In this document: positions 10,497 to 52,638 of the stretch, in pieces
Numbering within the stretch: position 1 is the first letter of the stretch
Layout: every line of letters begins with the position of its first letter
Assembly (NCBI GenBank): GCA_016781485.1
Contig: JADDQH010000003.1
Location: 5,384 to 69,383 of the forward strand
Direction: 5' to 3'
Length of the DNA: 64,000 nt
Source of the DNA: Chloroflexota bacterium
GTDB taxonomy: Bacteria; Chloroflexota; Limnocylindria; Limnocylindrales; CSP1-4
Notes under the pieces: generated by a model
What the model was told of the DNA's origin: nothing
Database searches by the model: none
What the model saw: only the letters and a program-made list of their open reading frames with translations
Program-made: the position numbers and the translations under genes

Positions 10497-11648
10497 TCAG
10501 GCGCAGATGGTCTCGTACGCCCTTCGAAGCAGCGCGGCGGCGGACGCCTGCTCGACCGCCACCAGGAAGTTGTCCGCGCGTCCGGGCGCGATGAAGCTGC
10601 CCCGGAGGCCGGAGAGCGCCGCCGCACTTCCGATGTGTTGCCTCAGCTCGTCGCCGGCTCCCGCGGACCGGAATAGCGCGTAGAGGCGGTCGACGGCGTC
10701 GGCGACGGACGTGGCGGCGAGCGCCTGGACGATCAGGGCCGCGCGGTCGGGAAACTCCTCGCCGACCTCGCGCAGGATCTCGGGAAGCGTCAGGCTGCAG
10801 GCGATCCCGTGCTGCACGCCAAGCTCCGCGGTCAGCGGATACGAGATCGAGTGCGCGAGCGCCGTCCGGGTATTGCTCATCGCCAGCCCGGCGACCAGCG
10901 CCGCCGAGGCGAGCCGCTCGCGTGCATCGGGATCAGCGGGCGACTCGAGGACGGCTCTCAACGCGTCCGGGATGAGGCCGATCGCACGGATCGCAAGCGC
11001 GTCCGAGATCGGATTCGACGCACGGTTCCAGATCGCCTCCATGGCATGTGACAGCGCGTCGAACGCGGTCGCGACCGTTGTCCTGCGCGGCACGCTGTGC
11101 GTGAGCAACGGATCGACGATGGCCGACTCCGGGTAAAGGCGGGGATGCGAGATCGAGTACTTCTTCCCGGTCCTCTCATCCCAGATCGTGCCCCACATCG
11201 TCACCTCGCTGCCGGTGCCTGCCGTGGTCGGGATGGCAAGGATCGCGGGAGGAAGGAAGTCGGCGGGGAACGGCCCGCCCTCCCTGAGGTGCGCCGAAAG
11301 CCAGGCGTCGGTGCCCGCGGCATCCTGGGCCGCGACCGCCTTCGCGGTGTCGATGACGCTCCCGCCGCCGATGGCCACGATCAGCTCCGCGTCGGCTGCC
11401 CGGACCTCCTCGAAGGCCGTCGTGCACGAGAGGACCGTGGGGTTCGGCGTGACGGCGGTGTACGTCGCGACGACCAGGTCGCCCAGCGCGTTCTCGACCG
11501 TGCGGAGCACGCCGCGGCGGGCCATCCCGTCGGACGTGAGGACGATGGTGCGACGGGACCGGGCGAGCTCCGCCAGCGCGCTCAGCGCGCCCGGGCCGAA
11601 GCGGATATGTACCGGGTTGTGGAAGGTCCTGGTTCGCCCGTCGGTCAA
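10497..11648 (-). CDS. Group III iron-containing alcohol dehydrogenase, predicted phosphonoacetaldehyde reductase (PhpC/FomC/Pdh-like)
   Basis: Fe-ADH fold signatures (GGGSVIDTAK, metal-binding His residues); last gene of the phosphonate operon; 4-nt overlap with ppd. Confidence 0.7.
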   Translation of the reverse strand: MTDGRTRTFHNPVHIRFGPGALSALAELARSRRTIVLTSDGMARRGVLRTVENALGDLVVATYTAVTPNPTVLSCTTAFEEVRAADAELIVAIGGGSVIDTAKAVAAQDAAGTDAWLSAHLREGGPFPADFLPPAILAIPTTAGTGSEVTMWGTIWDERTGKKYSISHPRLYPESAIVDPLLTHSVPRRTTVATAFDALSHAMEAIWNRASNPISDALAIRAIGLIPDALRAVLESPADPDARERLASAALVAGLAMSNTRTALAHSISYPLTAELGVQHGIACSLTLPEILREVGEEFPDRAALIVQALAATSVADAVDRLYALFRSAGAGDELRQHIGSAAALSGLRGSFIAPGRADNFLVAVEQASAAALLRRAYETICA

Positions 11649-12796
11649 CCGGGGAACCAGGACATGAACTGCTCCCTGACCTCGGCAGGCGCGTGGGCTG
11701 GCCGCCCGAGCTCCGGCGCTGAGCCGAGCGCGACCTTCACGTGCACGAGGTTGGGTCCGGTCGTGTTCATGCCCTCGGTGACGGCCGCCTCGAGCGCGTC
11801 GGCGGTGTCGACGCGCCAGATGTTCCGATAGCCGCAGCCAGCCGCGATCGTGGCGAAGTCGATACCCGAGGACACGGTCGCCTGACCGCCCGTCGACTCG
11901 TGCGCTTCGTTGTCGATGATCACGTGAAGGAAGCGAGCAGGTTGGCTGTAGCCGATGGTGGCGAGCGTGCCGAGCTTCATCAGCGCAGCGCCATCGCCGT
12001 CGAGGACGACGACGTTCCGGCTGCCGCGCCCGCCGAGATGCATGCCGAGGCCGATGCCGGACGCCGTCCCCATCGCCCCCACGACGTAGAACTGATTTGG
12101 GCGGTGGCCGAGCGTGTACAGCTCTCGTCCGATCTTTCCGGTCGTGCCGATGAGCGCCGCGCCGTCTCCGGCCGTGTCGCGAACGATCCGAATGGCCTCG
12201 ATCCGCGGCATCCGCTCCGACGGCGCGACCGTGAACGTCCCGCGTGGCGAGGCGAGCGGAGGCACCGGGTGGCGTGGCTGCTCGCTCAGCTCGTAGTCAT
12301 CGACCGCGCCCTTCCTCATCACGAACGCGTACGGACGTCCGGTCTCCGCCATGCACTCCTCGGCGCGCTCGAGGGCCGGCACGACCAGCGCCGGGTCCTC
12401 CGGGAAGAAGTCCCACGGGATCCGCATGGTCGTCAGCAGGTCACCTGTGATCTGGCCCATGAGCTCGTGCTGCGGCTCATCACGGACGCCGGGTGCGCCG
12501 CGGTGCGTGGTGATGAACAGCGTCGGGATCCGGAACGTGTAATTGAGTGACGTGAGCGGGTTGACCGCGTTGCCGAGCCCTGAGTTCTGGCAGATCACCA
12601 CGCTCTTGCGGCCGGCAAGATACGCGCCGGCCGCGACGCCGAGCGCCTCGCCTTCGCTCGCGGCGCCCACGTAGTCGACGTCGGGGCTACTGATGACGTA
12701 GTTGATGAATGGCGTGAGGAACGAGCACGGCACTCCGGCCCAGAACGAGTACCCCCGCTCGAGCGCCGGCTGGACGAAGTCGTGGGCCTTGATCAC
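11645..12796 (-). CDS. ppd: Phosphonopyruvate decarboxylase, fused alpha/beta (TPP-dependent)
   Basis: TPP-binding GDGA...N motif region (VVLDGDGAALMKLGTLATIG...IIDNEAHESTGGQ). The ORF-track ORF starts at a GTG 36 nt upstream; the start is set at the GTG that overlaps the stop of the upstream gene (GTGA). Adjacent to pepM. Confidence 0.85.
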   Translation of the reverse strand: MIKAHDFVQPALERGYSFWAGVPCSFLTPFINYVISSPDVDYVGAASEGEALGVAAGAYLAGRKSVVICQNSGLGNAVNPLTSLNYTFRIPTLFITTHRGAPGVRDEPQHELMGQITGDLLTTMRIPWDFFPEDPALVVPALERAEECMAETGRPYAFVMRKGAVDDYELSEQPRHPVPPLASPRGTFTVAPSERMPRIEAIRIVRDTAGDGAALIGTTGKIGRELYTLGHRPNQFYVVGAMGTASGIGLGMHLGGRGSRNVVVLDGDGAALMKLGTLATIGYSQPARFLHVIIDNEAHESTGGQATVSSGIDFATIAAGCGYRNIWRVDTADALEAAVTEGMNTTGPNLVHVKVALGSAPELGRPAHAPAEVREQFMSWFPG

Positions 12797-14907
12797 GACT
12801 CGATGTTCCTGCGGCCCTTGGCGTCGTACCACTGCCTGGAGTCGCCGACCACGCGCGCGAGGTTGTCGCGGCCCCCGGCGGCGATCGCCGAGAGCTCGAG
12901 TTGTGCGTCGCCGCTCACCCGGCCACCGATCCTGAGGACGAGCAACCGACCGCCCTGGCCCCGATAGCCGTGCCGAAGAGACGGCTTGGCGTATGCCGAA
13001 TCTCCCGGTGCGAGGGTGTCCTCGTATCGGTCCGTGCCGACCTCCCAGACCATGCTGACCGGGGTAGTGCCGACGTTGTAGACGTACTGGTGGAGGCCGA
13101 CGCGCAGGTCCGGCACGGCGGCTTCGTCGCGCTGCACGTTGAGCTCGAGACCCTTCGAGAACGGGAGGCTCCTCACCGGCGTGAGTTCCACCATCTCGTA
13201 TGCCGGCGCCCCGTCCGGATAGCTCCAGCGCGGTGAGTCGGCGTAGCGCTGGACCAGGACCGACTCCTCCAATACGTCGGGCACGAGCAGGTCGCGGACG
13301 CTGACGCGGAGCGCATCGGCGAAGCGTCGGAGCTCGTCCTCGGAGGGCTCGTCGCTGCCGGCCTCGAGCGCCTCTATCCGCGCCACGTGGAGCGCGGCCC
13401 GCCGCGCGAGCTCGCCGCAGGAGAGGCTGAGCCCCTCGCGATGGAAGCGCAGGAGCGACCCCATCGCTCGCTTCCGATCCGAGAAGTCGAGCACCAGCCC
13501 CGCAGCCAGCTCCGCGCCCAGCGCCGAGACCTCCTGGCGCGTCTCTCCAGCGAGCTTGTTCCCGTACGTCAGCGCCAGGATGAGGCCGAGCTCGCCGCGG
13601 TCATTCCTCCGTGAGGCGAACGAATGGGGAACGAACGGCGCGATGTACATCGAGTCGCCGGTGTCCATGACCGCGACGTTCTTTCGCCCGTCCGTCCCCC
13701 GGTAATAGAAATTCACCGGCCCCACGAAGTACGTGAACTGGTGGAGGAAGTGCCCGTTGTTCCACTGGATCGCCTGGTTCTCCGGGTCGTTGTCCTCGAC
13801 GACGCAGAGCTCCTTGATCCACTCGGGCCGGAATTGCGACAGCGAGCTCATCGCGGTGTCCCGGTACTCGTAGTAGTCCGCCCCGGCGCGCGCCATCACA
13901 CGGCTGCTCCGCTCGGAGTCCGCGGCGCGGAAGATGCGCACGCCGGTCGGGGCGTCGTCGTGGAGCAGATAGAACTCGCGCGGGCTGACCGGCCATGCCG
14001 CCGTGGCCTTGTCCACAAGCGCCGGCGGCAGCGACTTCCGCCCACCGATGATCTCCTCGATCTCGGGCAGAGGAACGCCGAGCTCTGCGGCGGCGTCCTC
14101 GGGGCGTCGCTTGAGGTCATTCAGGATCGCCCTGAAGTTCTCGCCGGTCCGTACGTCAGAAACCACTTGTCCTCCCGCCTTCCGGAAATCCTCGATCGTG
14201 TCGATCTCCCGCCACCCGCCACGGATGGTCACCGCGCGCACCTCGTGTCCGCGGTCGATGAGCTCCTGGAGCATATCGGTCAGGTACGCACGCTCCAGCT
14301 GCGCCGCCGCCTGGAACGGCCTGCCGGAGTGCGCCGCCGAGACATCGGCGAACACTCTCCGAAACGTCTGCGCGCCAGCGCGGGAGAGCCGCAGGAGGCC
14401 GATGAACTCGCCATCCGCATCGGCTTCGTCGAGATGCTTGCCGATCCTCGTGATGACCCCGTCCGTGAGGGCCACCTTCTCCGCCTGCGCGATCGGATGC
14501 TCCACCCGACCCTCGTACACCTTCCTCCAGTCGACGTCGCATACCGCCAGGAAGTCGCCCGTCGCCGACAGGAGTGTCTCGACCACGCTCGGCTCGTAGA
14601 CGATGTCCGAGTAGCTGACGACCACGTCGTCGTCGAGCTCCTCGCTCGCATACATCAGCGAGAGCAGGATGTTGTTGTTCCGGTAATCGGCGTTGAAGCG
14701 CGTCCTGACGCCGGAAAGCAACGGCGCGAGCCGGTCCGCCCGATACCCCGTGACGACGGTGATGTCGGCGATCCCGAACTCGCGGAACGTGTCGAGCTGG
14801 CGCTCGATGAGCGACCTTCCGTCCAGCTGGAGCATGCACTTCGGCTGGTCGCGCGTCAGGTGTCGCAGTCGGCTGCCCAGGCCGGCTGCCAGGACGATGG
14901 CTTTCAT
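12793..14907 (-). CDS. Fusion protein: N-terminal LicC-like nucleotidyl (cytidylyl) transferase (~250 aa) + C-terminal HEPD/MPnS/HppE-family bicupin dioxygenase with two HTH segments (~450 aa); candidate methylphosphonate synthase
   Basis: N-terminus MKAIVLAAGLGSRL...KCMLQLDGRSLIERQ is the NTP-transferase G-loop. The C-terminal part has an XRE-type HTH (LSLSCGELARRAALHVARIEALEAG) and a cupin with GHFLHQ...(37 aa)...FVPHSF. The ligand pattern is H, Q at +4 and H at +42, with F at +14 and I at +36. Length and layout match the bicupin-HTH enzymes. Confidence 0.7.
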   Translation of the reverse strand: MKAIVLAAGLGSRLRHLTRDQPKCMLQLDGRSLIERQLDTFREFGIADITVVTGYRADRLAPLLSGVRTRFNADYRNNNILLSLMYASEELDDDVVVSYSDIVYEPSVVETLLSATGDFLAVCDVDWRKVYEGRVEHPIAQAEKVALTDGVITRIGKHLDEADADGEFIGLLRLSRAGAQTFRRVFADVSAAHSGRPFQAAAQLERAYLTDMLQELIDRGHEVRAVTIRGGWREIDTIEDFRKAGGQVVSDVRTGENFRAILNDLKRRPEDAAAELGVPLPEIEEIIGGRKSLPPALVDKATAAWPVSPREFYLLHDDAPTGVRIFRAADSERSSRVMARAGADYYEYRDTAMSSLSQFRPEWIKELCVVEDNDPENQAIQWNNGHFLHQFTYFVGPVNFYYRGTDGRKNVAVMDTGDSMYIAPFVPHSFASRRNDRGELGLILALTYGNKLAGETRQEVSALGAELAAGLVLDFSDRKRAMGSLLRFHREGLSLSCGELARRAALHVARIEALEAGSDEPSEDELRRFADALRVSVRDLLVPDVLEESVLVQRYADSPRWSYPDGAPAYEMVELTPVRSLPFSKGLELNVQRDEAAVPDLRVGLHQYVYNVGTTPVSMVWEVGTDRYEDTLAPGDSAYAKPSLRHGYRGQGGRLLVLRIGGRVSGDAQLELSAIAAGGRDNLARVVGDSRQWYDAKGRRNIES

Positions 14908-14913
14908 GCTCCG

Positions 14914-16545
14914 TCACCGATACTGTCCGGCGCCGCCGAAATTCGACGCAGCGACGACGTCGTGCATGTCGTCCACGTCCAGCCAGTGGCCGCGGACGTA
15001 GACGACTTCGACCCGCCTGCCGCGCGCGAGGAGCGCATCGAAGACGTCCGCCATCCGCATGGTACGCGCGGCGCCGGTCGCCATCAGCTCCGTGCCCAGC
15101 TCCTTCAGCTGCTCCAGGCCCGACGCGGACATCTTCAGCAGGCCGATCCACTCGCCGTGCACCTGACCGGGCGGGAGCGTCGTGCTCATCTTCCCGAGGT
15201 GGGCGGTCTGATCGAACTCGCGCCAGTGGAACGGGCGGTCGCAGCACACCAGATCGCGGTAGCCGTCGCGATGCGCATCGTTCGCCGAGTCGGGGTCGAC
15301 GGCGATGCAGAAGTCCGAGTCCGACTCGAACAGCTGCATGGGGATGAACTTCTGGAAGAGGACGTCGCCGTACGCCACCAGGACCGGGCCAGAGAGCCCC
15401 TCCAACCCCTTGAACAGCGAGAAGGCCTCCTGGGTCGTGGCGTGCTCGTCGTTGTCGACGTACCGCGTATTCGGAAGCTGCAGTGCTTCCTTCCGGTAGC
15501 CGCGCACGACCGTGACGTCCTTGATGCCGATGCTCGTGAACGTCTCCATCATCCGCTCGAGAAGCGGCTTGCCCGCGATCTCGACCATCGCCTTCGGCCG
15601 ATCCTCCGTCAGGACGCCGAGCTCCTTGCCTCGGCCCGCCGCGAGCACGAGGGCCTGGGGCGCGCCCTGCCGAGCGGGGAGGTAGCGGCGCTCAGCCTCC
15701 TCCAGCTCGCCTGCGCCCTGGATCCGGAAGACCTCGCGGACGCTCACGATGCGGTCCTCGATATTCAGCAGGCTCTCCTCGCGAGAGAGCTGCTGCGCCG
15801 TCTGCTGCATCGCGGTGAGTGCGCTCCGCATGAGGTGGTTCGCCCAGATGACGACGCTGATGCCGGCCTCACGGAACACCTCGGTCGGCGTGCTGTAGTA
15901 CGTGGTCGGCACGATGACGACCGGGCAGCGGTCGCCCCATTCCTTCTTGAACGCGAGGATCTCGTCCGGGCGTGAGAGCTTGCTGTGGATGAGGATCGCG
16001 TCAGCGCCGGCGCGGTGATAGGCATCGGCCCTCCTGAGCGCCTCGGAAAGGCCCCAGCCGGCGATCAGCGCTTCCACGCGGGCGACGATGCTGAAGCTGT
16101 CATCGCGCTGCGCGTCCTTCCCCGCCTTGATCTTTCCGCAGAACTCGTCCACGTCGGCGAGTGGCTGGTTCTCGCCGATGAAGCTATTCGTCTTCGGGAA
16201 CAGTTTGTCCTCGATGGCCACTCCCGCCACGCCACGGGTCTCGAGCTTCTGGACGAGCCGCCGCATGTTGTTGAAGTTCCCGTAGCCCGTGTCACCGTCG
16301 AGCAGGATGGGGATCTTCACGGCATCGGTGACGAACTCGAGCAGGTCGAGCACCTGCGTCCAGCTCATCTCGTTGTTGTCGCGTACGCCCATCGAGGCGG
16401 AGATGGAGAGGCCGCTTCCCCACAGCCCTTCGAATCCCGCTTCCTCGGCGACCTTGGCGCTCAGGCCGTTGTGGGCCTCCATGAGGAAACTCAGCCCGTC
16501 GCGCGTCAGGATCTCTCGCAGCGCCTGCGTCTTCGATGAGTTCAT
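14914..16545 (-). CDS. pepM: Fusion protein: N-terminal phosphoenolpyruvate phosphomutase (PepM) + C-terminal LicC-like nucleotidyl (cytidylyl) transferase
   Basis: Diagnostic PepM motif [13 protein letters not shown] (EDKxxxxxNS) in an isocitrate-lyase-superfamily TIM barrel. The C-terminal part [33 protein letters not shown] is the NTP-transferase G-loop. GGAG RBS 6 nt before the downstream ATG. Confidence 0.85.
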
Positions 16546-17720
16546 GTCGCGACGTTTGCCGTGACGCGCTCGCGCGTCCTGTCCGCGACGAGGGCCACGT
16601 GGCTCGCGCCCACCGTCGCACTGCGCCCCACGTTGTAGACGTGACGTGCGCGCGCCTCTCGCAGCAGCGGCCGGAACCCTTCGCGCCTCGCGGAGAGATC
16701 GTCGATGCGGTCGAGGACAGCACGGAGGTCACCGGGGTCGACGATGCCGCCGAGCTCCTCGCGCACCGACTCTTCGAGCGGCACGAGTCCCACCCGTTCG
16801 TACTCGGGATTGTTGATCTTCTTCGGCGTGTCGACGAAGAGGACCGGACGCTCCAGGCCGAACGCGTACTCCAGGGCAGCTCCCGACCAGTCGCTGATCA
16901 TCAGGTCCGACTCGTGCAGCGACTGTTGTGCGTTCATGTCGGTCTCGACCCGGAATGACCGGTCGCCGAACCGCTGGGCCAGGGTCGTGGCGAGCTTCGG
17001 GAAGCGCCGCACGGTCATCGGGTGAAGGCGCAACACCACGGAGTGACCGGCGTCGACGAGTAGCTGCACGAGCTCCTGTCCGTACGGCGCCTCGATGAAA
17101 GAGCACGCTCCCCAGGACGGGGCGAGCACGATCCTGGTCATTCCGTCTTGTGCCGCCGCCCAGGGATGCTCGGCGCTCGTCCGGAGGATCGCGTCGAGAC
17201 GCCCGTAGCCGTGCTCCACGAGCTCCTTCGGCGGCAGCCCGTACGACTCCTCGGTGCGGCGGATCTCAGCGACGTGATGCGGTCCCACGCAGAAGACCGT
17301 GTCGTAGGCGTCGAACGCGCCCTTGCGATAGATCATGTGGGTGCTCACCATCGAATGGAACACGTAAACGTAGTGCACCGGGTGCACCGAGCGCTTCAGG
17401 TGGAACGACTCCAGGTCGGGAAGTGTCATCACGACGACATCGGCGTCCACGACCTTGAAGAACGCCGTCCGCGCCGCCCCCGCGCCGATGAAGAACGTGC
17501 GGATCCGAGGATCGTCGAGCGAGAGCACGGGATCGGTGGCGTCGGAGGTGACGTAGCAGATGCTGCGGCCCAACGAAGCCGTCAATTCGTTCACGATCGG
17601 CCCCAGGTGCGGCCAGTCGGCTCGTCCTTCCGCGTAGAAGACTATACCGCGGTCCTCCCGCGGAAGGCGATCGAAGGTCCGCATCGAGGACCACGCCGCG
17701 AAGGCATCCTTCAGCGACAC
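16542..17720 (-). CDS. TagF/TagB-like CDP-alcohol phosphotransferase (Glyphos_transf family), first gene of the phosphonate operon
   Basis: C-terminal region [27 protein letters not shown] resembles the TagF catalytic motif (xTDYSSxxFDYxxLxRPxxFY). ATGA overlap with pepM. Confidence 0.65.
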
Positions 17721-18028
17721 GGGGTCACCGGCGAGCCTTGGGTACCGACTTGTCGCCGGTCGTCGCCCGGTCGCTGACCCCTCTGCATCCCTCCGGGCGA
17801 CGTCCGGACGTCAGCCGTCCGGCGTCCGGGTCGACGGGGCTCGAGCTCGTCACCGGCGCGTTGCTCGTCTCCGGGGCCGTCACCGCCGATGCGATGGCGA
17901 CCCTGCTCCACCGCGTTCCGCAAGAAGAACGAGGTCGCGCCGGCTGGGGTGGATCTGGAGGAGCACGATGCCCGTGCCGGCATCGACGAACGCAAACGGC
18001 ATGTGGGAAGCCTCCCGGTTTCGGTAAG

Positions 18029-18108
18029 CCACTCGCCCGCCTGGGGGGCGAGGCAGGGTGCCGAGTGGGAGCGGCGATTGTCGCGGAATCCGGACCCTTT
18101 GACAATCG
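18029..18108. promoter_or_regulatory. GC-rich hairpin (CCACTCG...CGAGTGG) followed by a perfect 8-bp inverted repeat CGATTGTC-N18-GACAATCG, in the 490-bp gap between arsR and the phosphonate operon
   Basis: Seen directly; no convincing ORF in the gap; function unknown. Confidence 0.3.
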
Positions 18109-18208
18109 TAGCTGGACCAGGAACGTCGCCCACTACACCGTCGGACTCGGCTCGGCGGCCCATGAATGGCTGGCGCCGCTCACGCTCGCCCACTGCCGAA
18201 CGAAGGCG

Positions 18209-18802: not shown

Positions 18803-19618
18803 ATGATCGACGAGGTCCACGAAACCGTCCGCGACCGGTACGCGCAGGCCGCGCTCTCGGTGATGGCGACGGGCGCGAGCTGTTGCGGTGACGAGCCGGG
18901 GAGCGGGGGCGAGCTGTACGACGCGCTTACCCGCGACGAGTTGCCGGAGGCGGCCGTCCTCGCGTCACTCGGCTGCGGCAACCCCATCGCCGTGGCCGAT
19001 CTGCGAGAAGGCGAGCGCGTTCTCGACCTGGGTTCCGGCGGCGGGATAGACGTGTTGCTCTCGGCCAAGCGCGTGGGACCGACCGGGCGCGCGATCGGGC
19101 TCGACATGACCGACGAGATGCTCGCGCTGGCTCAGAAGAACGCCGCGGACGCGGGTGCGACGAACGTCGAGTTCCTGAAGGGCCACATCGAGGCCATCCC
19201 CTTGCCTGCCGACTCCGTTGATGTCGTGATCAGCAACTGCGTCGTCAACCTCGCTGCAGACAAGCCCGCGGTCTTCCGCGAGATCGCTCGCGTGCTCAGG
19301 GCCGGTGGACGCGTCGGCATCAGCGACATCGTGGCGGACGACGCGCTCACCCCTGGGCAGCGTGCCGAGCGGGGCTCGTATGTCGGTTGTATCGCCGGCG
19401 CATTGTCGGTATCGGAGTTCGAGGCCGGGCTCCGCGAGGTCGGGCTGACCGGGGTTTCCGTGACACCGACGCATGCTGTGGCGGAAGGCCTGTCCAGTGC
19501 GATCATCAAGGCGACCAAGCCCGGAGGCGCTGCGGGAGCCCCCGCGCCGGCGGTGAAACCGGGCGCGGTCTCCGCCTCGAGTGGCTGCTGCGGTGGCGGA
19601 GGCTGCTGCTGCTGCTAG
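18803..19618 (+). CDS. arsM: Arsenite S-adenosylmethionine methyltransferase with a Cys/Gly-rich C-terminal tail
   Basis: SAM-methyltransferase motif VLDLGSGGG plus conserved ArsM cysteines ([25 protein letters not shown]); C-terminus [13 protein letters not shown]. Confidence 0.8.
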
Positions 19619-19673
19619 CATCGACCGCTGCCAAGTGTCAGAAGCGGGCGACACGAACGTCTAGAGTGCACTG

Positions 19674-20606
19674 ATGGCGTTCGACCCCCGCCGATCGATG
19701 AAGGTCGGCGTCATCCTCCCGTTCTCGCAACGCGAGATGGGCGGAGAGACGCCACGCTGGAACGACCTCGTGGCGATGGCTCGGACGGCGGAGGCCATCG
19801 GCCTCGACTCGATCTGGATCTCGGACCACCTCCTGTTCCGATTCGAGGGGCAGGAACCGCGTGGCCCGTGGGAGTGCTGGTCGCTCGTCAGCGCGCTGGC
19901 GGTCGCGACCGAGCGGGTCGAGATCGGGACATATGTGAACTGCACGAGCTTCCGCAACCCGACGGTGTTCGCGAAGATGATCGACACGGTCGAGGAGATC
20001 AGCGGCGGGCGGCTGATCATCGGGCTCGGTGCCGGCTGGCACGAGCCGGAATACCAGGCGTTTGGCTTCCCGTTCGACCACCGGGTCAGCCGGTTCGAGG
20101 AAGCGATCGAGATCATCACCCGCCTGTTGCGCGAAGGGCACGTCGACTTCCAGGGGCGGTACTACCAGGCACGCGACTGCGAGCTACGCCCTCGCGGACC
20201 CCGCCCTGCCGGGCCACCGATCATGGTCGGCTCGACGCGCCCCCGGATGCTCCGGCTCGCCGCGCGGTACGCAGATGCGTGGAACGGCTTCGCAAAGCGG
20301 ATCGACGTCCTACCGTCACTGAACACGTCCGTCGACGAGGCATGCCGGGACGTTGGACGCGATCCCGCCACGCTCGCGCGAACCGCGGAGACCCACGTCC
20401 GCTTCCCGCACCTTGCCCCGGAGGGCGACGAAGCGGATCTCATGGGCGAGCCGGAAGAGCTGGCCGAGGTGCTGGCGCCGTATGCCGGGCACCGACTTGC
20501 CCATCTCCAGCTCCGGATCCGGCCGGACACCGTCGCATCGATCGAAGCGTTCGCGCCCGCGCTCGAGGCGCTCGATCGCCGGCTGGGTCATCGCGCCGGC
20601 GGGTGA
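19674..20606 (+). CDS. Luciferase-like monooxygenase (LLM) family oxidoreductase, probably F420-dependent
   Basis: LLM TIM-barrel signatures (MKVGVILPF...DSIWISDHL...GRLIIGLGAGW); F420 biosynthesis gene fbiC lies nearby. Confidence 0.6.
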   Translation: MAFDPRRSMKVGVILPFSQREMGGETPRWNDLVAMARTAEAIGLDSIWISDHLLFRFEGQEPRGPWECWSLVSALAVATERVEIGTYVNCTSFRNPTVFAKMIDTVEEISGGRLIIGLGAGWHEPEYQAFGFPFDHRVSRFEEAIEIITRLLREGHVDFQGRYYQARDCELRPRGPRPAGPPIMVGSTRPRMLRLAARYADAWNGFAKRIDVLPSLNTSVDEACRDVGRDPATLARTAETHVRFPHLAPEGDEADLMGEPEELAEVLAPYAGHRLAHLQLRIRPDTVASIEAFAPALEALDRRLGHRAGG

Positions 20607-30169: not shown

Positions 30170-30374
30170 ATCTTTCGTGGTGGATGGGATGTGGAAAAGT
30201 CGGACGTTTGCACTAGGACTGCGCAGTACTTTCGAGCCAGACGCCGCTTCGGGCCGGGTGAGGATCCGTGGACGAACAGGACCATCGGGGACGGCGGTAC
30301 GGAATAAAGGGGGGTGTGCTGCGGAACCGCACCGGACCAGACTCCACCCGCCGATACCGAATCCGGGGAGCACG

Positions 30375-32129
30375 ATGATCCGAGTCCGCTCGCGCCCGCT
30401 GGCGCTGACCGCCATTGTCCTGGCCGCGGTCCTTACCGCGCCGTCCGGCGTTCTCGCCCTCGGTCCCACCGCTACCCCGCTTCCGGCCGACGGCGGTGCA
30501 GGGCGCTCCTTCAGCCCGGATCCCTACCCGACGCGAACGCTGACGCCCGCGTCCTCCGGGATCGACGCTGCGCGTGGCCGCGCCGAGACCGGCGAAGTGA
30601 CCATCGAAGCGACGACGAGCCAGTTCCCTCCGGGCGACGAGCGGTACCACACGTACGCCGAGATGAGCGCCGAGACCGCCGCGCTTGCCGCCGCGCATCC
30701 GCGGATCGTGAAGCGGTTCAGCATCGGCAAGTCGTACCAGGGACGCGAGCTGTGGGCCGCCAAGGTCAGTGACAACGTCCTGGTCGACGAGAACGAGCCG
30801 GAGGTGCTGTTCCAGGGGCTGCAGCACGGCGACGAGCACATGGCGCTCGAGATGACGCTGTACATCTTCAACCAGCTCGTGAAAGGCTATGCCGCTGGCG
30901 ATGCGCGCATCAGGAACATCGTGAACAACCGCGAGGTCTGGATCGTGTTCGCGCTGAATCCGGACGGCGCCGAGTACGACATCGCCGGCGGCTACTACCA
31001 CGGCTGGCGCAAGAACCGGCAGCCCACGCCCGGCTCGAGCCACATCGGCACCGACGTGAACCGCAACTTCCCGTACCACTGGGGTTGCTGCGGCGGCTCC
31101 AGCGGTGACCCATCGAGCTCCCGCTACCGCGGTCCGTCACCGCTCTCCACGCCGGAGGCGCTGGCGCTGAAGCGGTTCGTCACGAGTCGCATCGTGGGCG
31201 GGGGGCAGCAGATCCGGACGGCGATCGACTTCCATACGTACGGCCATCTCGTCTTGTGGCAGTACGGCTACACGAAGACCGACGTGCCGTACGACATGAC
31301 GAGGGCCGACCACGACGCCCTTGTCGCGATGGGAACGCACATGGCCAGCACGAACGGCTACACCGCCGGACAGGGAGCCGATCTGCTGTATCTCACCGAC
31401 GGATCCGCGACGATGTACCTGTACGGGGTCCACCGGATCTTCGTCTACACCTTCGAGCTCGACACGCACGACTATCCGGCGGACGAAACGATCGCCACGG
31501 AGACCGCCTCGAACCGCGAAGCCGCTCTGTATCTCATGGAGCAGGCAGGATGCCCGTACCGCGCCAGCGGGAAGGCGGCGCAGAACTGCGGGCCGCTCTA
31601 CGAGGACTTCGAGATCGGGCGCGGGTGGCGGATGGACCCGTACGGGACCGACACCGCGACGATGGGCCGGTTCGAGCGGGGCAACCCGCAGTGGACGAGC
31701 TCGAACGGCTACAAGCAGCGCGGCACTACGATCTCGGGCAGCGTCGACCTTGTCACCGGCCGGCTCGCAGGCTCGTCCGTGGGCACGTTCGACGTCGACG
31801 GTGGCGTCACGTCCGCGCTCTCTCCCGTGATCACACTGCCGGCGGGGAGCAGCTACACGCTCTCGTTCCGCTACTACTTCGCACACTCGCAACTGGGCTC
31901 CAGCGCCGACTACTTCCGGGTCAGCGTCGTCCGCGCTGATGGTTCGAGGAGTCGCGCGTTCCAGCGCCAGGGGTCGCTGAAGGATGTGGACGCGGCCTGG
32001 GCGACGGCGGGCATCGACCTGAGCACGTTCGCAGGACAGAAGGTGCGCCTGCTGTTCGAGGCGGCGGACAGCGGCACGAACAGCCTGATCGAGGCCGCCG
32101 TCGACGACGTGCGGGTCACGCGGCCGTGA
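30375..32129 (+). CDS. Secreted zinc carboxypeptidase, peptidase family M14, with a C-terminal beta-rich domain
   Basis: Signal peptide; M14 motifs HGDEH (HxxE), NPDG, NRNF, FHTYGH, YTFEL. Confidence 0.8.
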   Translation: MIRVRSRPLALTAIVLAAVLTAPSGVLALGPTATPLPADGGAGRSFSPDPYPTRTLTPASSGIDAARGRAETGEVTIEATTSQFPPGDERYHTYAEMSAETAALAAAHPRIVKRFSIGKSYQGRELWAAKVSDNVLVDENEPEVLFQGLQHGDEHMALEMTLYIFNQLVKGYAAGDARIRNIVNNREVWIVFALNPDGAEYDIAGGYYHGWRKNRQPTPGSSHIGTDVNRNFPYHWGCCGGSSGDPSSSRYRGPSPLSTPEALALKRFVTSRIVGGGQQIRTAIDFHTYGHLVLWQYGYTKTDVPYDMTRADHDALVAMGTHMASTNGYTAGQGADLLYLTDGSATMYLYGVHRIFVYTFELDTHDYPADETIATETASNREAALYLMEQAGCPYRASGKAAQNCGPLYEDFEIGRGWRMDPYGTDTATMGRFERGNPQWTSSNGYKQRGTTISGSVDLVTGRLAGSSVGTFDVDGGVTSALSPVITLPAGSSYTLSFRYYFAHSQLGSSADYFRVSVVRADGSRSRAFQRQGSLKDVDAAWATAGIDLSTFAGQKVRLLFEAADSGTNSLIEAAVDDVRVTRP

Positions 32130-33808
32130 ACCGCGCTCGGAGCGGCCGGCAGCAGGATGCCGGAGACGCACTCCCTGCTGTCCACCCCTCGCGGCGCCGG
32201 ACGTTCGCGCCGGCGTTGCTCATCGCCCTGGCCGTGACGCTCCTGACACCGCCGAGCCCGTCCGCGACCGCCGCTGCAGCCGATTTCCCGCCCGGCTTCG
32301 AGGGCTATCACACCTACTCGGAGATGGCGACCCATCTCGCGGACGTCGCTGCCGCGCGTCCCGGGATCGTCCGCCGGTTCAGTATCGGGAAGTCGTACCA
32401 GGGGCGGGACATCTGGGCGGTCAAGGTGAGTGACAACGTGGGGACCGACGAAAACGAGCCGGAGGTGCTGTTCGACGGCAACACGCACGCGCGCGAGCAC
32501 ATCACCGGCGAGATGGCGATCTACCTGCTGGACATGCTCGTGCGGGGCTACGTGAACGGCGACGCACGCGTCAGGCGGGTCGTGAACACGCGAGAGATCT
32601 TCATCGTTCCGATGGTGAACCCGGACGGCGTGCAGTACGACATCTCCGGCGGGGTGTTCCACTACTGGCGGAAGAACCGTCAGCCGAACGCGGCTACCAC
32701 GGCCGTCGGAACGGACATCAACCGCAACTACGGCTACCACTGGGGCTGCTGCAACGGCTCCAGCACGAGCCCTTCGAGCAGCCAGTACCGCGGCCCGAGT
32801 GCGTGGTCGACGCACGAAGCGCGCGCCCTCCGGGATTTCATCAACCGACGGGTGGTCGGCGGTCGGCAACAGATCAGGGCCGCGATCAGCTTCCACAGTG
32901 CGGGCGAGCAGGTCCTGTGGCCGTACGGGTACACGTTCACGGATGTTCCGGGCGACATGACGACCGAGGATCACACCGCGCTCGTCGCGCTCGCTCGCGG
33001 CATGGCCGCCGACAGCGACTACACCGCGATGCAGTCGAGCGGCCTCTACGTCACCGACGGCGATTACATCGACTGGGCATACGGGATCCACCGGATCTTC
33101 GCCTACACCTTCGAGCTCTACCCGCCGGTGACGAGCGACCCCGATCGGCACTACCCCGACGACTCGCTCGTCCCCCGCGAGACCTCCCGCAACAGGAGCG
33201 CGGTGCTACGGCTGCTCGAGAACGCCGATTGCCCCTACCGGGCATCCGGGCGTGCTCTCCTCGACTGCGGCCCGCTCTACGACGACTTCGAGATCGCCCG
33301 CGGCTGGCGCATGAACCCGAGCGGTACCGACACGGCGACGGCGGGACGCTTCGAGCGAGGGAACCCGGAGACGACCTCGTCGTCGGGGTACAAGCAGCTG
33401 GGCACGGCCGCGAGTGGCAGCCTCGACCTCGTGACCGGGCGCCTGGCCGGAGCGTCGGTCGGGACGCACGACGTGGACGGTGGGAAGACCTCCGCGATGT
33501 CACCCTCGATCACCCTCAGTGGTGGCTCGACCTTCCAGCTCCGGTTCCGCTACTACTTCGCGCATTCGTCCCTGTCCTCGACCGCCGACTACCTTCGCGT
33601 GAAGGTCGTGACCTCCTCGGGTGCGACGAGGACGGTCTTCCAGGAGTTCGGCTCCGCGGTGGATGACGACGCCGCGTGGACGAGCCGAAGCATCGACCTC
33701 GACGCATACGCCGGCCAGAGCGTCCGACTCCTCGTCGAGGTGGCCGACGGAAGCACGAACAGCCTCGTCGAGGTGGCGATCGACGACGTGCGGGTGACAC
33801 GGGAGTAG
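32126..33808 (+). CDS. Secreted zinc carboxypeptidase M14, tandem paralog of the upstream gene
   Basis: Same motif set (HAREH, NPDG, NRNY, FHSAGE, YTFEL); ~55% identical by eye to the upstream copy over the full length; ATGA overlap. Confidence 0.8.
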   Translation: MNRARSGRQQDAGDALPAVHPSRRRTFAPALLIALAVTLLTPPSPSATAAAADFPPGFEGYHTYSEMATHLADVAAARPGIVRRFSIGKSYQGRDIWAVKVSDNVGTDENEPEVLFDGNTHAREHITGEMAIYLLDMLVRGYVNGDARVRRVVNTREIFIVPMVNPDGVQYDISGGVFHYWRKNRQPNAATTAVGTDINRNYGYHWGCCNGSSTSPSSSQYRGPSAWSTHEARALRDFINRRVVGGRQQIRAAISFHSAGEQVLWPYGYTFTDVPGDMTTEDHTALVALARGMAADSDYTAMQSSGLYVTDGDYIDWAYGIHRIFAYTFELYPPVTSDPDRHYPDDSLVPRETSRNRSAVLRLLENADCPYRASGRALLDCGPLYDDFEIARGWRMNPSGTDTATAGRFERGNPETTSSSGYKQLGTAASGSLDLVTGRLAGASVGTHDVDGGKTSAMSPSITLSGGSTFQLRFRYYFAHSSLSSTADYLRVKVVTSSGATRTVFQEFGSAVDDDAAWTSRSIDLDAYAGQSVRLLVEVADGSTNSLVEVAIDDVRVTRE

Positions 33809-52468: not shown

Positions 52469-52638
52469 CAGGACCTCCCATCGCGGGGCTCGCGCCACGC
52501 CATCCCTCGGCGGTCAGGGGTAGTGCCATGCATGGCGCCGGCATGACCACGCCGCCGCGTGCTCACGCCGCCTGTCCTTCGGTTCGCCGGTGCCGCACGA
52601 GGTCGACGACCTCCATCGCGGCCGCTCTCCGCCGCGTC

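What the first reader, a model, noticed from the sequence alone, without database searches (positions are those of the whole stretch)
16542..17720. TagF-like transferase as lead gene of a phosphonate operon: predicted CMP-phosphonate:acceptor phosphonyl transferase
Seen in sequence: a 392-aa protein whose C-terminal half carries the Glyphos_transf-type motif ([25 protein letters not shown]), translationally coupled to pepM. Established knowledge: TagF/TagB enzymes polymerise or prime teichoic acid by transferring glycerol-phosphate from CDP-glycerol, releasing CMP. Inference: in this context the donor is probably a CMP-phosphonate, so this enzyme would install a phosphonate (possibly methylphosphonate) ester on a polymer. 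That would be a new substrate class for the TagF fold and would imply a phosphonate-decorated cell envelope
Basis: inference. Interest (0 to 1): 0.7.

Follow-up and report, generated by a model that had tools for sequence, protein, structure and literature searches.

The report
TagF-like transferase heading a methylphosphonate operon
A small teichoic-acid-type (TagF-like) transferase sits at the head of a complete methylphosphonate-synthesis operon. It belongs to a large uncharacterised family that is almost always encoded beside enzymes making nucleotide-activated small phosphorus groups, so it is the best candidate for the unknown enzyme that attaches methylphosphonate to cell material.

Summary
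Window 16542..17720 (minus strand) encodes a 392-aa protein with a significant but partial Glyphos_transf hit. Its predicted GT-B fold is closest to TagF. Both family histidines appear present: H233 is firmly aligned, H122 only at low confidence. Its stop overlaps the pepM start by 4 nt, and it is the first of five tightly packed genes.

The operon encodes PepM fused to a LicC/PntC-like cytidylyltransferase, a second such domain fused to a methylphosphonate synthase with the full MpnS signature, phosphonopyruvate decarboxylase, and an Fe-alcohol dehydrogenase.

Across 81 unique relatives, 58 lie beside a pathway for a CMP-activated small phosphorus group. 24 are phosphonate-type, always with a cytidylyltransferase. 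34 carry a cassette resembling the Campylobacter phosphoramidate pathway. The archetypal Nitrosopumilus maritimus cluster lacks this gene.

Best reading (confidence about 0.6): the enzyme transfers methylphosphonyl, or possibly 2-hydroxyethylphosphonyl, from a CMP-phosphonate to a hydroxyl acceptor and releases CMP. Donor and acceptor are inferred, not shown. I found no paper linking TagF-like enzymes to phosphonates. C. difficile FtaD already shows that TagF-like enzymes can use non-polyol CDP donors. I rate it a new variant of a known kind.

The parts
16542..17720 (-). TagF-like (Glyphos_transf) GT-B phosphotransferase, 392 aa. It has no extra polymerase domain and no predicted transmembrane segment. 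Proposed CMP-phosphonate:acceptor phosphonyl transferase.
14914..16545 (-). PEP mutase (residues 1-~290) fused to a C-terminal LicC/PntC-like nucleotidyltransferase (residues ~297-543).
   Evidence: TIGR02320 386 bits against cut-off 320. PF13714 and PF12804. PDB 1M1B PEP mutase 407 bits; LicC 1JYK E 8.5e-12 for residues 296-406. [10 protein letters not shown] motif seen. ATGA overlap with the upstream gene.
12793..14907 (-). N-terminal LicC/PntC-like nucleotidyltransferase (residues 1-~245) fused to methylphosphonate synthase (residues ~250-704).
   Evidence: PDB 6B9S N. maritimus MpnS E 3e-141, 475 bits, against HEPD 6B9R 318 bits. LicC 1JYK E 2.4e-16. PntC fusion 6PD1 E 9e-9. Signature H-Q-F-I-H retained. 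PF12804 and HTH_31.
11645..12796 (-). Phosphonopyruvate decarboxylase. The public gene call is 383 aa; the longest ORF would start at 12832.
   Evidence: TIGR03297 413 bits against cut-off 312.5. Gene call in L001.
10497..11648 (-). Fe-dependent alcohol dehydrogenase, probably phosphonoacetaldehyde reductase making 2-hydroxyethylphosphonate.
   Evidence: PF00465/PF25137. Best NCBIfam model is TIGR03405 Phn_Fe-ADH at 339 bits, below its cut-off of 424.
17721..18208 (-). Upstream intergenic region, presumably holding the operon promoter (not demonstrated).
   Evidence: 488-nt gap to the ArsR-like gene. One sigma-70-like match at 18105..18077, no better than chance.

Best explanation
The five genes form a self-contained module that makes methylphosphonate (MPn) and hands it on. 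The biosynthetic steps follow from confident family assignments. PepM converts PEP to phosphonopyruvate. Ppd decarboxylates it to phosphonoacetaldehyde. The Fe-ADH reduces that to 2-hydroxyethylphosphonate (HEP). MpnS converts HEP to MPn. The next steps are inferred. The LicC/PntC-like domains fused to PepM and MpnS use CTP to make CMP-phosphonate (CMP-MPn, perhaps also CMP-HEP). The TagF-like enzyme then works like TagF or TarL. H122 deprotonates an acceptor hydroxyl, which attacks the phosphonate phosphorus of the CMP-phosphonate. H233 and the SDWSG/APSWG motifs hold the CMP leaving group and help it depart. The product is a methylphosphonate monoester plus CMP. MPn has no free hydroxyl, so the transfer can only cap; it cannot polymerise. 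This fits a protein that is a bare GT-B domain without the N-terminal polymerase domain. The acceptor is unknown. The most likely candidate is a membrane-associated glycoconjugate or glycerolipid at the cytoplasmic face.
For: Family and catalytic apparatus. The TarL paper (PMC10901376) shows that H300 and H433 are both essential.

MPn pathway.

Operon structure.

The same cassette, with the TagF-like gene immediately upstream of pepM, occurs in 12 unique loci from Chloroflexota-, Acidobacteriota- and Myxococcota-labelled MAGs with unrelated flanks.

Family-wide linkage in 81 unique relatives:
- 24 are phosphonate-type. All PepM-linked ones carry a cytidylyltransferase fused to PepM, either the C-terminal LicC type or the N-terminal Fom1 type PF01467.
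- 34 lie in the order PPDK-like kinase / Peptidase_C26 amidase / nucleotidyltransferase / TagF-like. The amidase's best NCBIfam hit is gamma-glutamyl-CDP-amidate hydrolase, the Campylobacter Cj1417 activity. Its product, cytidine diphosphoramidate, is CMP-P(O2)-NH2 and is isosteric with CMP-P(O2)-CH3.

In these conserved cores the TagF-like protein is the only candidate transferase. On an NJ tree most phosphonate-context members form one clade that includes the window protein.

Fusions to a YidC-like membrane domain and to an ABC-transporter ATPase point to membrane and exported-polymer biology.

Precedent: TagF-like FtaD transfers N-methyl-phosphothreonine from a CDP donor to GlcNAc in vitro.
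Confidence: 0.6

Rival explanations
1. The chemistry is the same, but the donor is CMP-2-hydroxyethylphosphonate rather than CMP-MPn. The PepM-fused cytidylyltransferase would make CMP-HEP, as Fom1 does in fosfomycin biosynthesis. The TagF-like enzyme would transfer HEP, possibly repeatedly, because HEP keeps a free hydroxyl like glycerol phosphate. MPn would then be a second, separate product or a cap.
For: Ten unique relatives sit in PepM-Ppd-ADH loci without MpnS, where HEP is the expected end product. There PepM carries a Fom1-type N-terminal cytidylyltransferase. The window operon has two cytidylyltransferase domains, one on PepM. From my own knowledge, HEP esters occur in actinomycete phosphonoglycans (Yu et al. 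2014, J Bacteriol 196:1768; paper not held).
Against: In the window and its closest relatives an MpnS with the full signature is always present and is fused or overlapped with its own cytidylyltransferase. This argues that MPn is what gets activated. The enzyme also lacks the N-terminal domain typical of TagF-family polymerases (for the rule; for the 392-aa GT-B).
Confidence: 0.17
2. It is a conventional TagB/TarF-like primase. It would use CDP-glycerol or another CDP-alditol to add a polyol-phosphate linker that later carries, or merely accompanies, the phosphonate.
For: Public annotation names the family 'CDP-glycerol glycerophosphotransferase family protein'. The Pfam hit is to that family. 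From my own knowledge, a HEP mono(2,3-dihydroxypropyl) ester was released from Glycomyces phosphonoglycan (Yu et al. 2014, not held), so glycerol and phosphonate can be joined.
Against: No glycerol-3-phosphate or ribitol-phosphate supply genes (TagD, TarI/TarJ types) appear in the conserved cassettes. The only nucleotidyltransferases present are fused to PepM and MpnS. This reading would leave the phosphonate and phosphoramidate pathways with no transferase in their conserved cores. No NCBIfam teichoic-acid model matches. The similarity to bona fide TagF/TarL is remote (E 0.0036 to TarL).
Confidence: 0.1
3. It removes the cytidylyl group rather than transferring the phosphonate to a macromolecule. 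It would play a FomD-like role: water, or a small alcohol, is the acceptor, cytidylylation is transient, and free MPn is the product.
For: From my own knowledge, transient cytidylylation followed by hydrolysis is established in fosfomycin biosynthesis (Fom1/FomD). The window operon has no neighbouring glycan or lipid genes.
Against: FomD is an unrelated fold. An invariant general-base histidine and a GT-B acceptor cleft are features of transferases. Family members are fused to membrane (YidC-like) and ABC-exporter modules. Many lie in surface-glycan loci.
Confidence: 0.07
4. It is not a phosphotransferase at all, but a generic GT-B glycosyltransferase or 2-epimerase-like enzyme recruited to these loci.
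Against: The only Pfam family matched is Glyphos_transf. The TagF-family motifs are all present and invariant: GxxRxD, APxxxG, xHP and SDxSx. There is no Epimerase_2 or Glycos_transf match.
Confidence: 0.04

Closest known systems
TagF / TarL / TagB teichoic-acid polyol-phosphate transferases (Pfam PF04464; PDB 3L7I, 8VA1)
   Same: GT-B fold. Closest solved structures. Shared motifs, including the HP histidine (H233 = TarL H433) and probably the base histidine (H122 = TarL H300). The expected chemistry is attack of an acceptor hydroxyl on the beta-phosphorus of a cytidine-linked donor, with release of CMP (PMC10901376).
   Different: Sequence relationship is very remote (14-17% identity; only the C-terminal domain aligns significantly). 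There is no N-terminal polymerase domain. It is not in a teichoic-acid locus. The predicted donor has a P-C bond and no polyol, so only a single capping transfer is possible.
FtaD (CD0244) of Clostridioides difficile, a TagF-like CDP-N-methylthreonine:GlcNAc phosphotransferase
   Same: A TagF-like enzyme used for a one-off decoration with a non-polyol group. It is paired in an operon with the nucleotidyltransferase that makes its CDP-linked donor, and it has been shown in vitro (bioRxiv 10.64898/2026.02.12.704994).
   Different: Its donor is a phosphate diester of an amino acid, not a phosphonate. Its acceptor is a flagellin O-GlcNAc. Sequence similarity to the window protein was not tested here.
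Pnt / Lic logic: PntC or LicC cytidylyltransferase followed by a LicD-type transferase (Rice et al. 2019, PMC6697681)
   Same: Activation of a phosphonate as a CMP conjugate by a LicC-like enzyme, often fused to PepM, followed by transfer to a surface molecule. The paper states that the later tailoring steps remain enigmatic.
   Different: The transferases discussed there are LicD-like or glycosyltransferases. TagF-like enzymes are not mentioned in that paper (0 occurrences). The phosphonate there is 2-aminoethylphosphonate.
Nitrosopumilus maritimus methylphosphonate cluster (MpnS archetype)
   Same: PepM, Ppd, Fe-ADH, MpnS and one NTP_transf_3 nucleotidyltransferase are present. MpnS is 47% identical by tblastn and carries the same signature.
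   Different: There is no TagF-like gene within 10 kb. Two soluble-size sulfatase-family genes flank mpnS. No gene fusions are present.
Campylobacter jejuni O-methyl phosphoramidate pathway (Cj1416-Cj1418, transferases Cj1421/Cj1422)
   Same: 34 relatives of the window protein lie directly after a PPDK-like kinase, a C26 amidase whose best model is gamma-glutamyl-CDP-amidate hydrolase, and a nucleotidyltransferase. The expected donor, cytidine diphosphoramidate, is isosteric with CMP-MPn.
   Different: The amidase score is below the NCBIfam cut-off (119 against 250). I could not obtain Cj1421/Cj1422 sequences, so whether they belong to this family is untested. The enzymology of the decoration step is still open according to PMC12409886.
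Fom1 (cytidylyltransferase-PepM) of fosfomycin biosynthesis
   Same: It has the same domain pair as the PepM of the MpnS-less relatives (PF01467 + PF13714). From my own knowledge, it makes CMP-HEP.
   Different: In fosfomycin biosynthesis the CMP group is later hydrolysed off rather than used for transfer. No TagF-like partner is involved.

Membership tests
TagF-like / Glyphos_transf (PF04464) | Significant match to the family profile | tested here: met
   32.5 bits against gathering 22.1, E 5.9e-8, but only residues 156-296. hhalign against TarL-like sequences gives 94% probability, E 1.3e-7, over the same region. No NCBIfam model matches.
TagF-like / Glyphos_transf (PF04464) | GT-B fold with TagF-family enzymes as nearest structures | tested here: met
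TagF-like / Glyphos_transf (PF04464) | Invariant histidine that contacts the alpha-phosphate and protonates the CMP leaving group (TarL H433) | tested here: met
   Query LRLH233P aligns with TarL KMH433P. Invariant in 80/80 relatives. Role taken from PMC10901376.
TagF-like / Glyphos_transf (PF04464) | Invariant catalytic-base histidine preceded by an aromatic residue (TagF H444, TarL W299-H300) | tested here: inconclusive
   F121-H122 falls on W-H only in extended (mact 0.01) and global hhalign, in a low-confidence stretch. H122 is invariant in 80/80 relatives. Residue 121 is F/H/Q/Y. No residue-level structural superposition was available.
TagF-like / Glyphos_transf (PF04464) | Uses CDP-glycerol or CDP-ribitol as donor | not testable with these tools
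   Context argues against it: no polyol-phosphate supply genes are present, and the nucleotidyltransferases are fused to PepM and MpnS.
TagF-family polymerases (TagF, TarL, TarK) | Additional N-terminal domain before the GT-B domain | tested here: not met
   The 392-aa protein is modelled as a single GT-B unit from residue ~25. The rule is stated in PMC10901376. It therefore resembles single-addition members, not polymerases.
Methylphosphonate synthase (MpnS), for the 704-aa neighbour | Closer to MpnS than to HEPD, with iron ligands His/Gln/His plus the Phe and Ile that distinguish MpnS from HEPD (Born et al. 2017, from my own knowledge; paper not held) | tested here: met
   475 bits against 318 bits. 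The query has NNGHFLHQ...VNFYY...SMYIAP...PH. The solved HEPD shows Y and G at the two discriminating positions in the same alignment. Signature HQFIH.
PEP mutase | Equivalog-level profile score and the EDK-X5-NS catalytic motif (criterion quoted in PMC8931226) | tested here: met
   TIGR02320 386 bits against 320. [10 protein letters not shown] in the translation. 407 bits to PDB 1M1B.
PntC/LicC-like phosphonate cytidylyltransferase | NTP_transf_3 fold with LicC/PntC as nearest characterised relatives; specificity for a phosphonate and for CTP | tested here: inconclusive
   The fold and relatives criterion is met: PF12804 at 48.7 and 56.5 bits, LicC E 1e-11 to 1e-16, PntC fusion 6PD1 E 9e-9. 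Substrate and nucleotide specificity cannot be read from sequence here.
Campylobacter-type phosphoramidate pathway (in relatives, not in the window) | Homologues of glutamine kinase, gamma-glutamyl-CDP-amidate hydrolase and phosphoglutamine cytidylyltransferase in one locus | tested here: inconclusive
   In L071 the kinase-like protein matches NF004508 at 890 bits (an unnamed family). The amidase's best hit is NF045546 at 119 bits, below cut-off 250. The nucleotidyltransferase is generic. The gene order recurs in 34 loci.

The most novel reading that the evidence does not exclude
This TagF-like clade (at least 671 clusters at 50% identity) would be a general family of 'small phosphorus-cap transferases'. 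Members would take nucleotide-activated donors of the form NMP-P(O2)-X, with X = CH3, CH2CH2OH or NH2, and possibly AMP-sulfate in the ATP-sulfurylase-linked members. They would install non-extendable caps on membrane-bound glycans or glycerolipids before export. In the phosphonate branch the first product may be a lipid-linked phosphonate, which the co-occurring LtaS/EptA-like membrane proteins pass on to extracytoplasmic acceptors. That would make this enzyme the missing step that turns methylphosphonate into the esterified form found in the environment, including in non-marine lineages.
Probability: 0.3. Interest if true: 0.85.

Novelty: new variant of a known kind. Interest (0 to 1): 0.66.

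Why it matters
How phosphonates are attached to cell-surface material after activation is an acknowledged gap. Rice et al. 2019 call the tailoring steps enigmatic. Methylphosphonate esters are the proposed substrate for aerobic methane production in oxic waters.

A defined, widespread candidate transferase makes the attachment step directly testable with a CMP-release assay and a five-gene expression construct.

The cassette also places a bona fide MpnS in MAGs labelled Limnocylindria/Chloroflexia, Acidobacteriota and Myxococcota. A lake study could not find mpnS by KEGG annotation (PMC10734540), so non-marine sources of methylphosphonate may be under-counted.

The same family may also supply the still-uncharacterised phosphoramidate transferases outside Campylobacter.

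Finally, the current database names for these proteins ('CDP-glycerol glycerophosphotransferase', and in JGI even 'YidC/Oxa1 insertase') are probably misleading.

Tried and rejected
- **phmmer of the protein against PDB.** No meaningful hit. Only the family profile reached TarL.
- **hhalign in default local mode.** It aligned only the C-terminal domain. The N-terminal histidine could be placed only with relaxed or global settings, so I do not count it as firmly met.
- **Canonical TagF sequences for comparison.** A search with a TarL fragment returned only fragments of 253 aa or less. I used those that span both histidines.
- **AFDB50 fold search.** It might have surfaced named homologues such as Cj1421, but the library was not installed.
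- **Key papers not held.** Yu 2014, Yu 2013, Ju 2015, Metcalf 2012 and Born 2017 could not be read. I therefore could not check whether the Glycomyces/Stackebrandtia phosphonoglycan clusters contain this gene. Statements from those papers are marked as my own knowledge.
- **Full-text searches.** Searches combining glycerophosphotransferase or TagF with pepM, phosphonate or methylphosphonate found nothing relevant.
- **The C. jejuni 'CGPTase' paper (PMC8949473).** I considered it as evidence that MeOPN transferases are TagF-like and rejected it. The CGPTase gene there is distinct from the MeOPN transferase gene.
- **Residues fixed differently in phosphonate- and phosphoramidate-context members.** None were found at 80% conservation. 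Only softer differences exist, for example position 232.
- **The actinomycete assumption.** 70% GC suggested an actinomycete, but the nearest relatives of the cassette are Limnocylindria/Chloroflexia MAGs. The organism itself was not identified.
Full report
**Observation.** The ORF is real. It lies on the minus strand at 16542..17720, starts with GTG and encodes 392 aa. The same gene is called in the public record of this contig, GCA_017884105.1 JAGELI010000020.1. The quoted motif lies at residues 275-299. Pfam gives one family, PF04464 Glyphos_transf (E 5.9e-8, 32.5 bits against a gathering score of 22.1). It covers only residues 156-296, and no NCBIfam model matches. The stop codon overlaps the ATG of the next gene by 4 nt. 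All five genes down to 10497 are co-directional, with overlaps or gaps of 6 nt or less. Upstream there is a 488-nt gap to an ArsR-like gene. No terminator-like site lies within the operon, and the single promoter-like match is at chance level.

**The operon.** The second gene is a PEP mutase (TIGR02320, 386 bits; 407 bits to PDB 1M1B; [10 protein letters not shown] motif). It is fused to a C-terminal NTP_transf_3 domain whose best solved relative is LicC.

The third gene (704 aa) has an N-terminal LicC/PntC-like domain (1JYK E 2e-16; PntC fusion 6PD1 E 9e-9). The rest of it matches N. maritimus methylphosphonate synthase far better than HEPD (475 against 318 bits). In the printed alignment the query shares with MpnS the residues H, Q, F, I and H, while the solved HEPD has Y and G at the two discriminating positions. 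That these two positions decide MpnS versus HEPD chemistry is from my own knowledge of Born et al. 2017; the paper was not held.

The fourth and fifth genes are phosphonopyruvate decarboxylase (TIGR03297, 413 bits) and an Fe-alcohol dehydrogenase. The dehydrogenase's best model is the phosphonate-associated TIGR03405, scoring below its cut-off.

The pathway PEP to phosphonopyruvate, phosphonoacetaldehyde, HEP and then methylphosphonate is therefore confidently encoded. Two cytidylyltransferase-type domains are built into it.

Sequence motifs do better. A profile of the family hits TarL (E 0.0036). It aligns GYGRLD with GVPRTD, APSWG with APTFRG, LRLH233P with KMH433P, and SDWSG with SDYSS. hhalign against TarL-like sequences gives 94% probability over the same region. 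TarL H433 and H300 are the two histidines shown to be essential (PMC10901376). The base histidine could only be placed with relaxed or global hhalign, where F121-H122 falls on W299-H300. I treat this as probable, not shown.

H122, R231, H233, S279, G280 and K301 are invariant in all 80 relatives examined. There is no N-terminal polymerase domain and no hydrophobic segment.

**The family and its neighbours.** This is the most informative evidence. The protein has over 3000 relatives in the word-indexed search. It has 671 clusters at 50% identity with E of 1e-30 or better, and relatives in 453 species genomes.

I compared 85 loci by tblastn with the window's proteins and with those of a Pseudomonas canadensis locus. 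The 81 unique family members divide as follows:

| Context | Members | Notes |
|---|---|---|
| PepM plus MpnS-type gene | 12 | Always with the HQFIH signature |
| MpnS-type gene, no PepM on the fragment | 2 | |
| PepM-Ppd-ADH without MpnS | 10 | |
| PPDK-like kinase / Peptidase_C26 amidase / nucleotidyltransferase / TagF-like | 34 | |
| LicC-like nucleotidyltransferase only | 6 | |
| Nothing recognised | 17 | Several on short contigs |

In the 12 closest loci the order TagF-like then PepM-NT is kept. These loci are labelled Chloroflexia/Limnocylindria, Acidobacteriota and Myxococcota, and their flanks are unrelated. So the cassette moves as a unit.

Every PepM in the MpnS-less loci carries an N-terminal Fom1-type cytidylyltransferase (PF01467).

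In the Pseudomonas locus the amidase's best NCBIfam model is gamma-glutamyl-CDP-amidate hydrolase, below cut-off. The kinase-like protein matches NF004508 at 890 bits. This resembles the Cj1418/Cj1417/Cj1416 route to cytidine diphosphoramidate.

Three members in one clade sit next to an ATP sulfurylase.

In each conserved core the TagF-like protein is the only plausible transferase, and each donor would be a nucleotide joined to a very small phosphorus (or sulfur) group. On an NJ tree most phosphonate-context members, including the window protein, form one clade. Position 232, next to the catalytic histidine, is Leu in 17 of 23 phosphonate-context members and Pro in 34 of 34 phosphoramidate-context members.

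Some members are fused to a YidC-like membrane domain, to an ABC-transporter ATPase, or to a formyltransferase-like domain.

**What it most likely does.** I conclude that the enzyme transfers the methylphosphonyl group, or possibly the 2-hydroxyethylphosphonyl group, from a CMP-phosphonate to a hydroxyl acceptor with release of CMP. It would use the TagF/TarL mechanism. MPn has no hydroxyl, so this is a capping reaction, consistent with the absence of a polymerase domain.

- Resting on confident assignments: the biosynthesis of MPn, and membership of the TagF-like superfamily.
- Inferred: the cytidylylation of MPn or HEP, the donor used by the transferase, and the acceptor.

**Comparison with what is known.** The cytidylyl-activation logic is that of the Pnt and Lic pathways. 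Rice et al. 2019 found nucleotidyltransferases in most phosphonate clusters and called the later steps enigmatic. That paper mentions LicD-like enzymes but not TagF-like ones.

A TagF-like enzyme using a non-polyol CDP donor for a one-off glycan decoration has just been demonstrated (FtaD). So the TagF fold is already known to go beyond polyol phosphates, although not to P-C donors.

The archetypal MPn producer N. maritimus has PepM, Ppd, ADH, MpnS and one nucleotidyltransferase but no TagF-like gene within 10 kb. It has two sulfatase-family genes instead. So the window shows a different transfer module.

Four full-text searches found no paper connecting TagF-like enzymes or glycerophosphotransferases with pepM or phosphonates. 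The most relevant older papers are not in the library, so prior mention cannot be excluded.

**Caveats.**
- The window gives no clue to the acceptor. The rest of the 64 kb is housekeeping: DnaE, riboflavin genes, FbiC, GatA/B, LigA, PcrA, GroEL and a nucleoside ABC importer.
- In the closest relatives the cassette is followed by one or two genes for proteins with four to five N-terminal transmembrane helices and a weak sulfatase-superfamily domain, a layout like LtaS or EptA. Such genes occur in 21 loci, almost all outside the phosphoramidate class, but not in this window. This raises the possibility of a lipid-linked intermediate. I could not test it.
- Why there are two cytidylyltransferase domains is unexplained.

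**Verdict.** I rate it a new variant of a known kind, with interest about 0.66.

Noticed in passing
window 12793..14907 (-); also L003, L005-L014: A methylphosphonate synthase with the full MpnS signature is fused to, or overlapped by 8 nt with, its own LicC-like nucleotidyltransferase. It occurs in MAGs labelled Limnocylindria/Chloroflexia, Acidobacteriota and Myxococcota. These are lineages not usually listed as methylphosphonate producers.
   Followed up: partly
L071 5504..11137 (Pseudomonas canadensis Feb-92); same order in 34 loci, e.g. L079 (Vibrio sp.), L074 (SAR86), L043, L050, L052 (Acidimicrobiia/Actinomycetota MAGs): A cassette of PPDK-like kinase, Peptidase_C26 amidase (best model gamma-glutamyl-CDP-amidate hydrolase, below cut-off), nucleotidyltransferase and TagF-like gene, often followed by a formyltransferase-like gene. 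It looks like a Campylobacter-type phosphoramidate pathway, spread across many phyla with a TagF-like candidate transferase.
   Followed up: partly
L024 8865..9932, L025 11148..12179, L028 3961..4992: In one clade of the family the gene next to the TagF-like gene is an ATP sulfurylase (PUA_2 + ATP-sulfurylase, 264 bits). In L024 a sulfatase-like/TPR protein and an FGE-sulfatase-domain protein are nearby. The donor there might be adenylyl-sulfate or another adenylylated anion.
   Followed up: partly
L007 17423..19024 and 19024..20586; similar in L006, L008, L010, L012 and 16 other loci; none in the window: One or two genes (a tandem pair in L006 and L007) sit directly after the methylphosphonate cassette in the closest relatives. 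They encode proteins with 4-5 N-terminal transmembrane helices and a weak sulfatase-superfamily domain (21-35 bits), an LtaS/EptA-like layout. They are almost absent from the phosphoramidate-type loci.
   Followed up: partly
proteins P0485, P0486, P0478, P0405: Family members are fused to a YidC-like 60KD_IMP membrane domain, to an ABC-transporter ATPase, or to a formyltransferase-like domain. A free-standing YidC-like gene follows the TagF-like gene in 16 loci. This probably explains the JGI label 'YidC/Oxa1 family membrane protein insertase' given to several plain TagF-like proteins.
   Followed up: partly
L005 20817..21176: About 10 kb downstream of the Myxococcota cassette lies an ABC_tran + Wzt_C gene. 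From my own knowledge, this is the type of exporter subunit that recognises terminal caps on O-antigen-like glycans.
   Followed up: no
window 14001..18000 compared with flanks: The operon region has a G+C fraction of 0.665-0.666 against about 0.70 in the flanking 2-kb windows. It is wedged between an ArsR/arsenite-methyltransferase-like pair and the F420 gene fbiC. Homologous cassettes in other phyla have unrelated flanks, which is consistent with horizontal transfer.
   Followed up: partly
window 30177..33808 (+) and 48203..52498 (-): There are two adjacent Peptidase_M14 carboxypeptidase genes. There is also a 1431-aa protein with Calx-beta and DUF11 domains and a weak M14 match.
   Followed up: no
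residue 232 of the window protein (codon at about 17025..17027, minus strand): The residue before the catalytic HP histidine is Leu in 17 of 23 phosphonate-context relatives and Pro in 34 of 34 phosphoramidate-context relatives. Positions 206-207, 298, 300 and 313 also differ by class. These are possible donor-specificity markers.
   Followed up: partly
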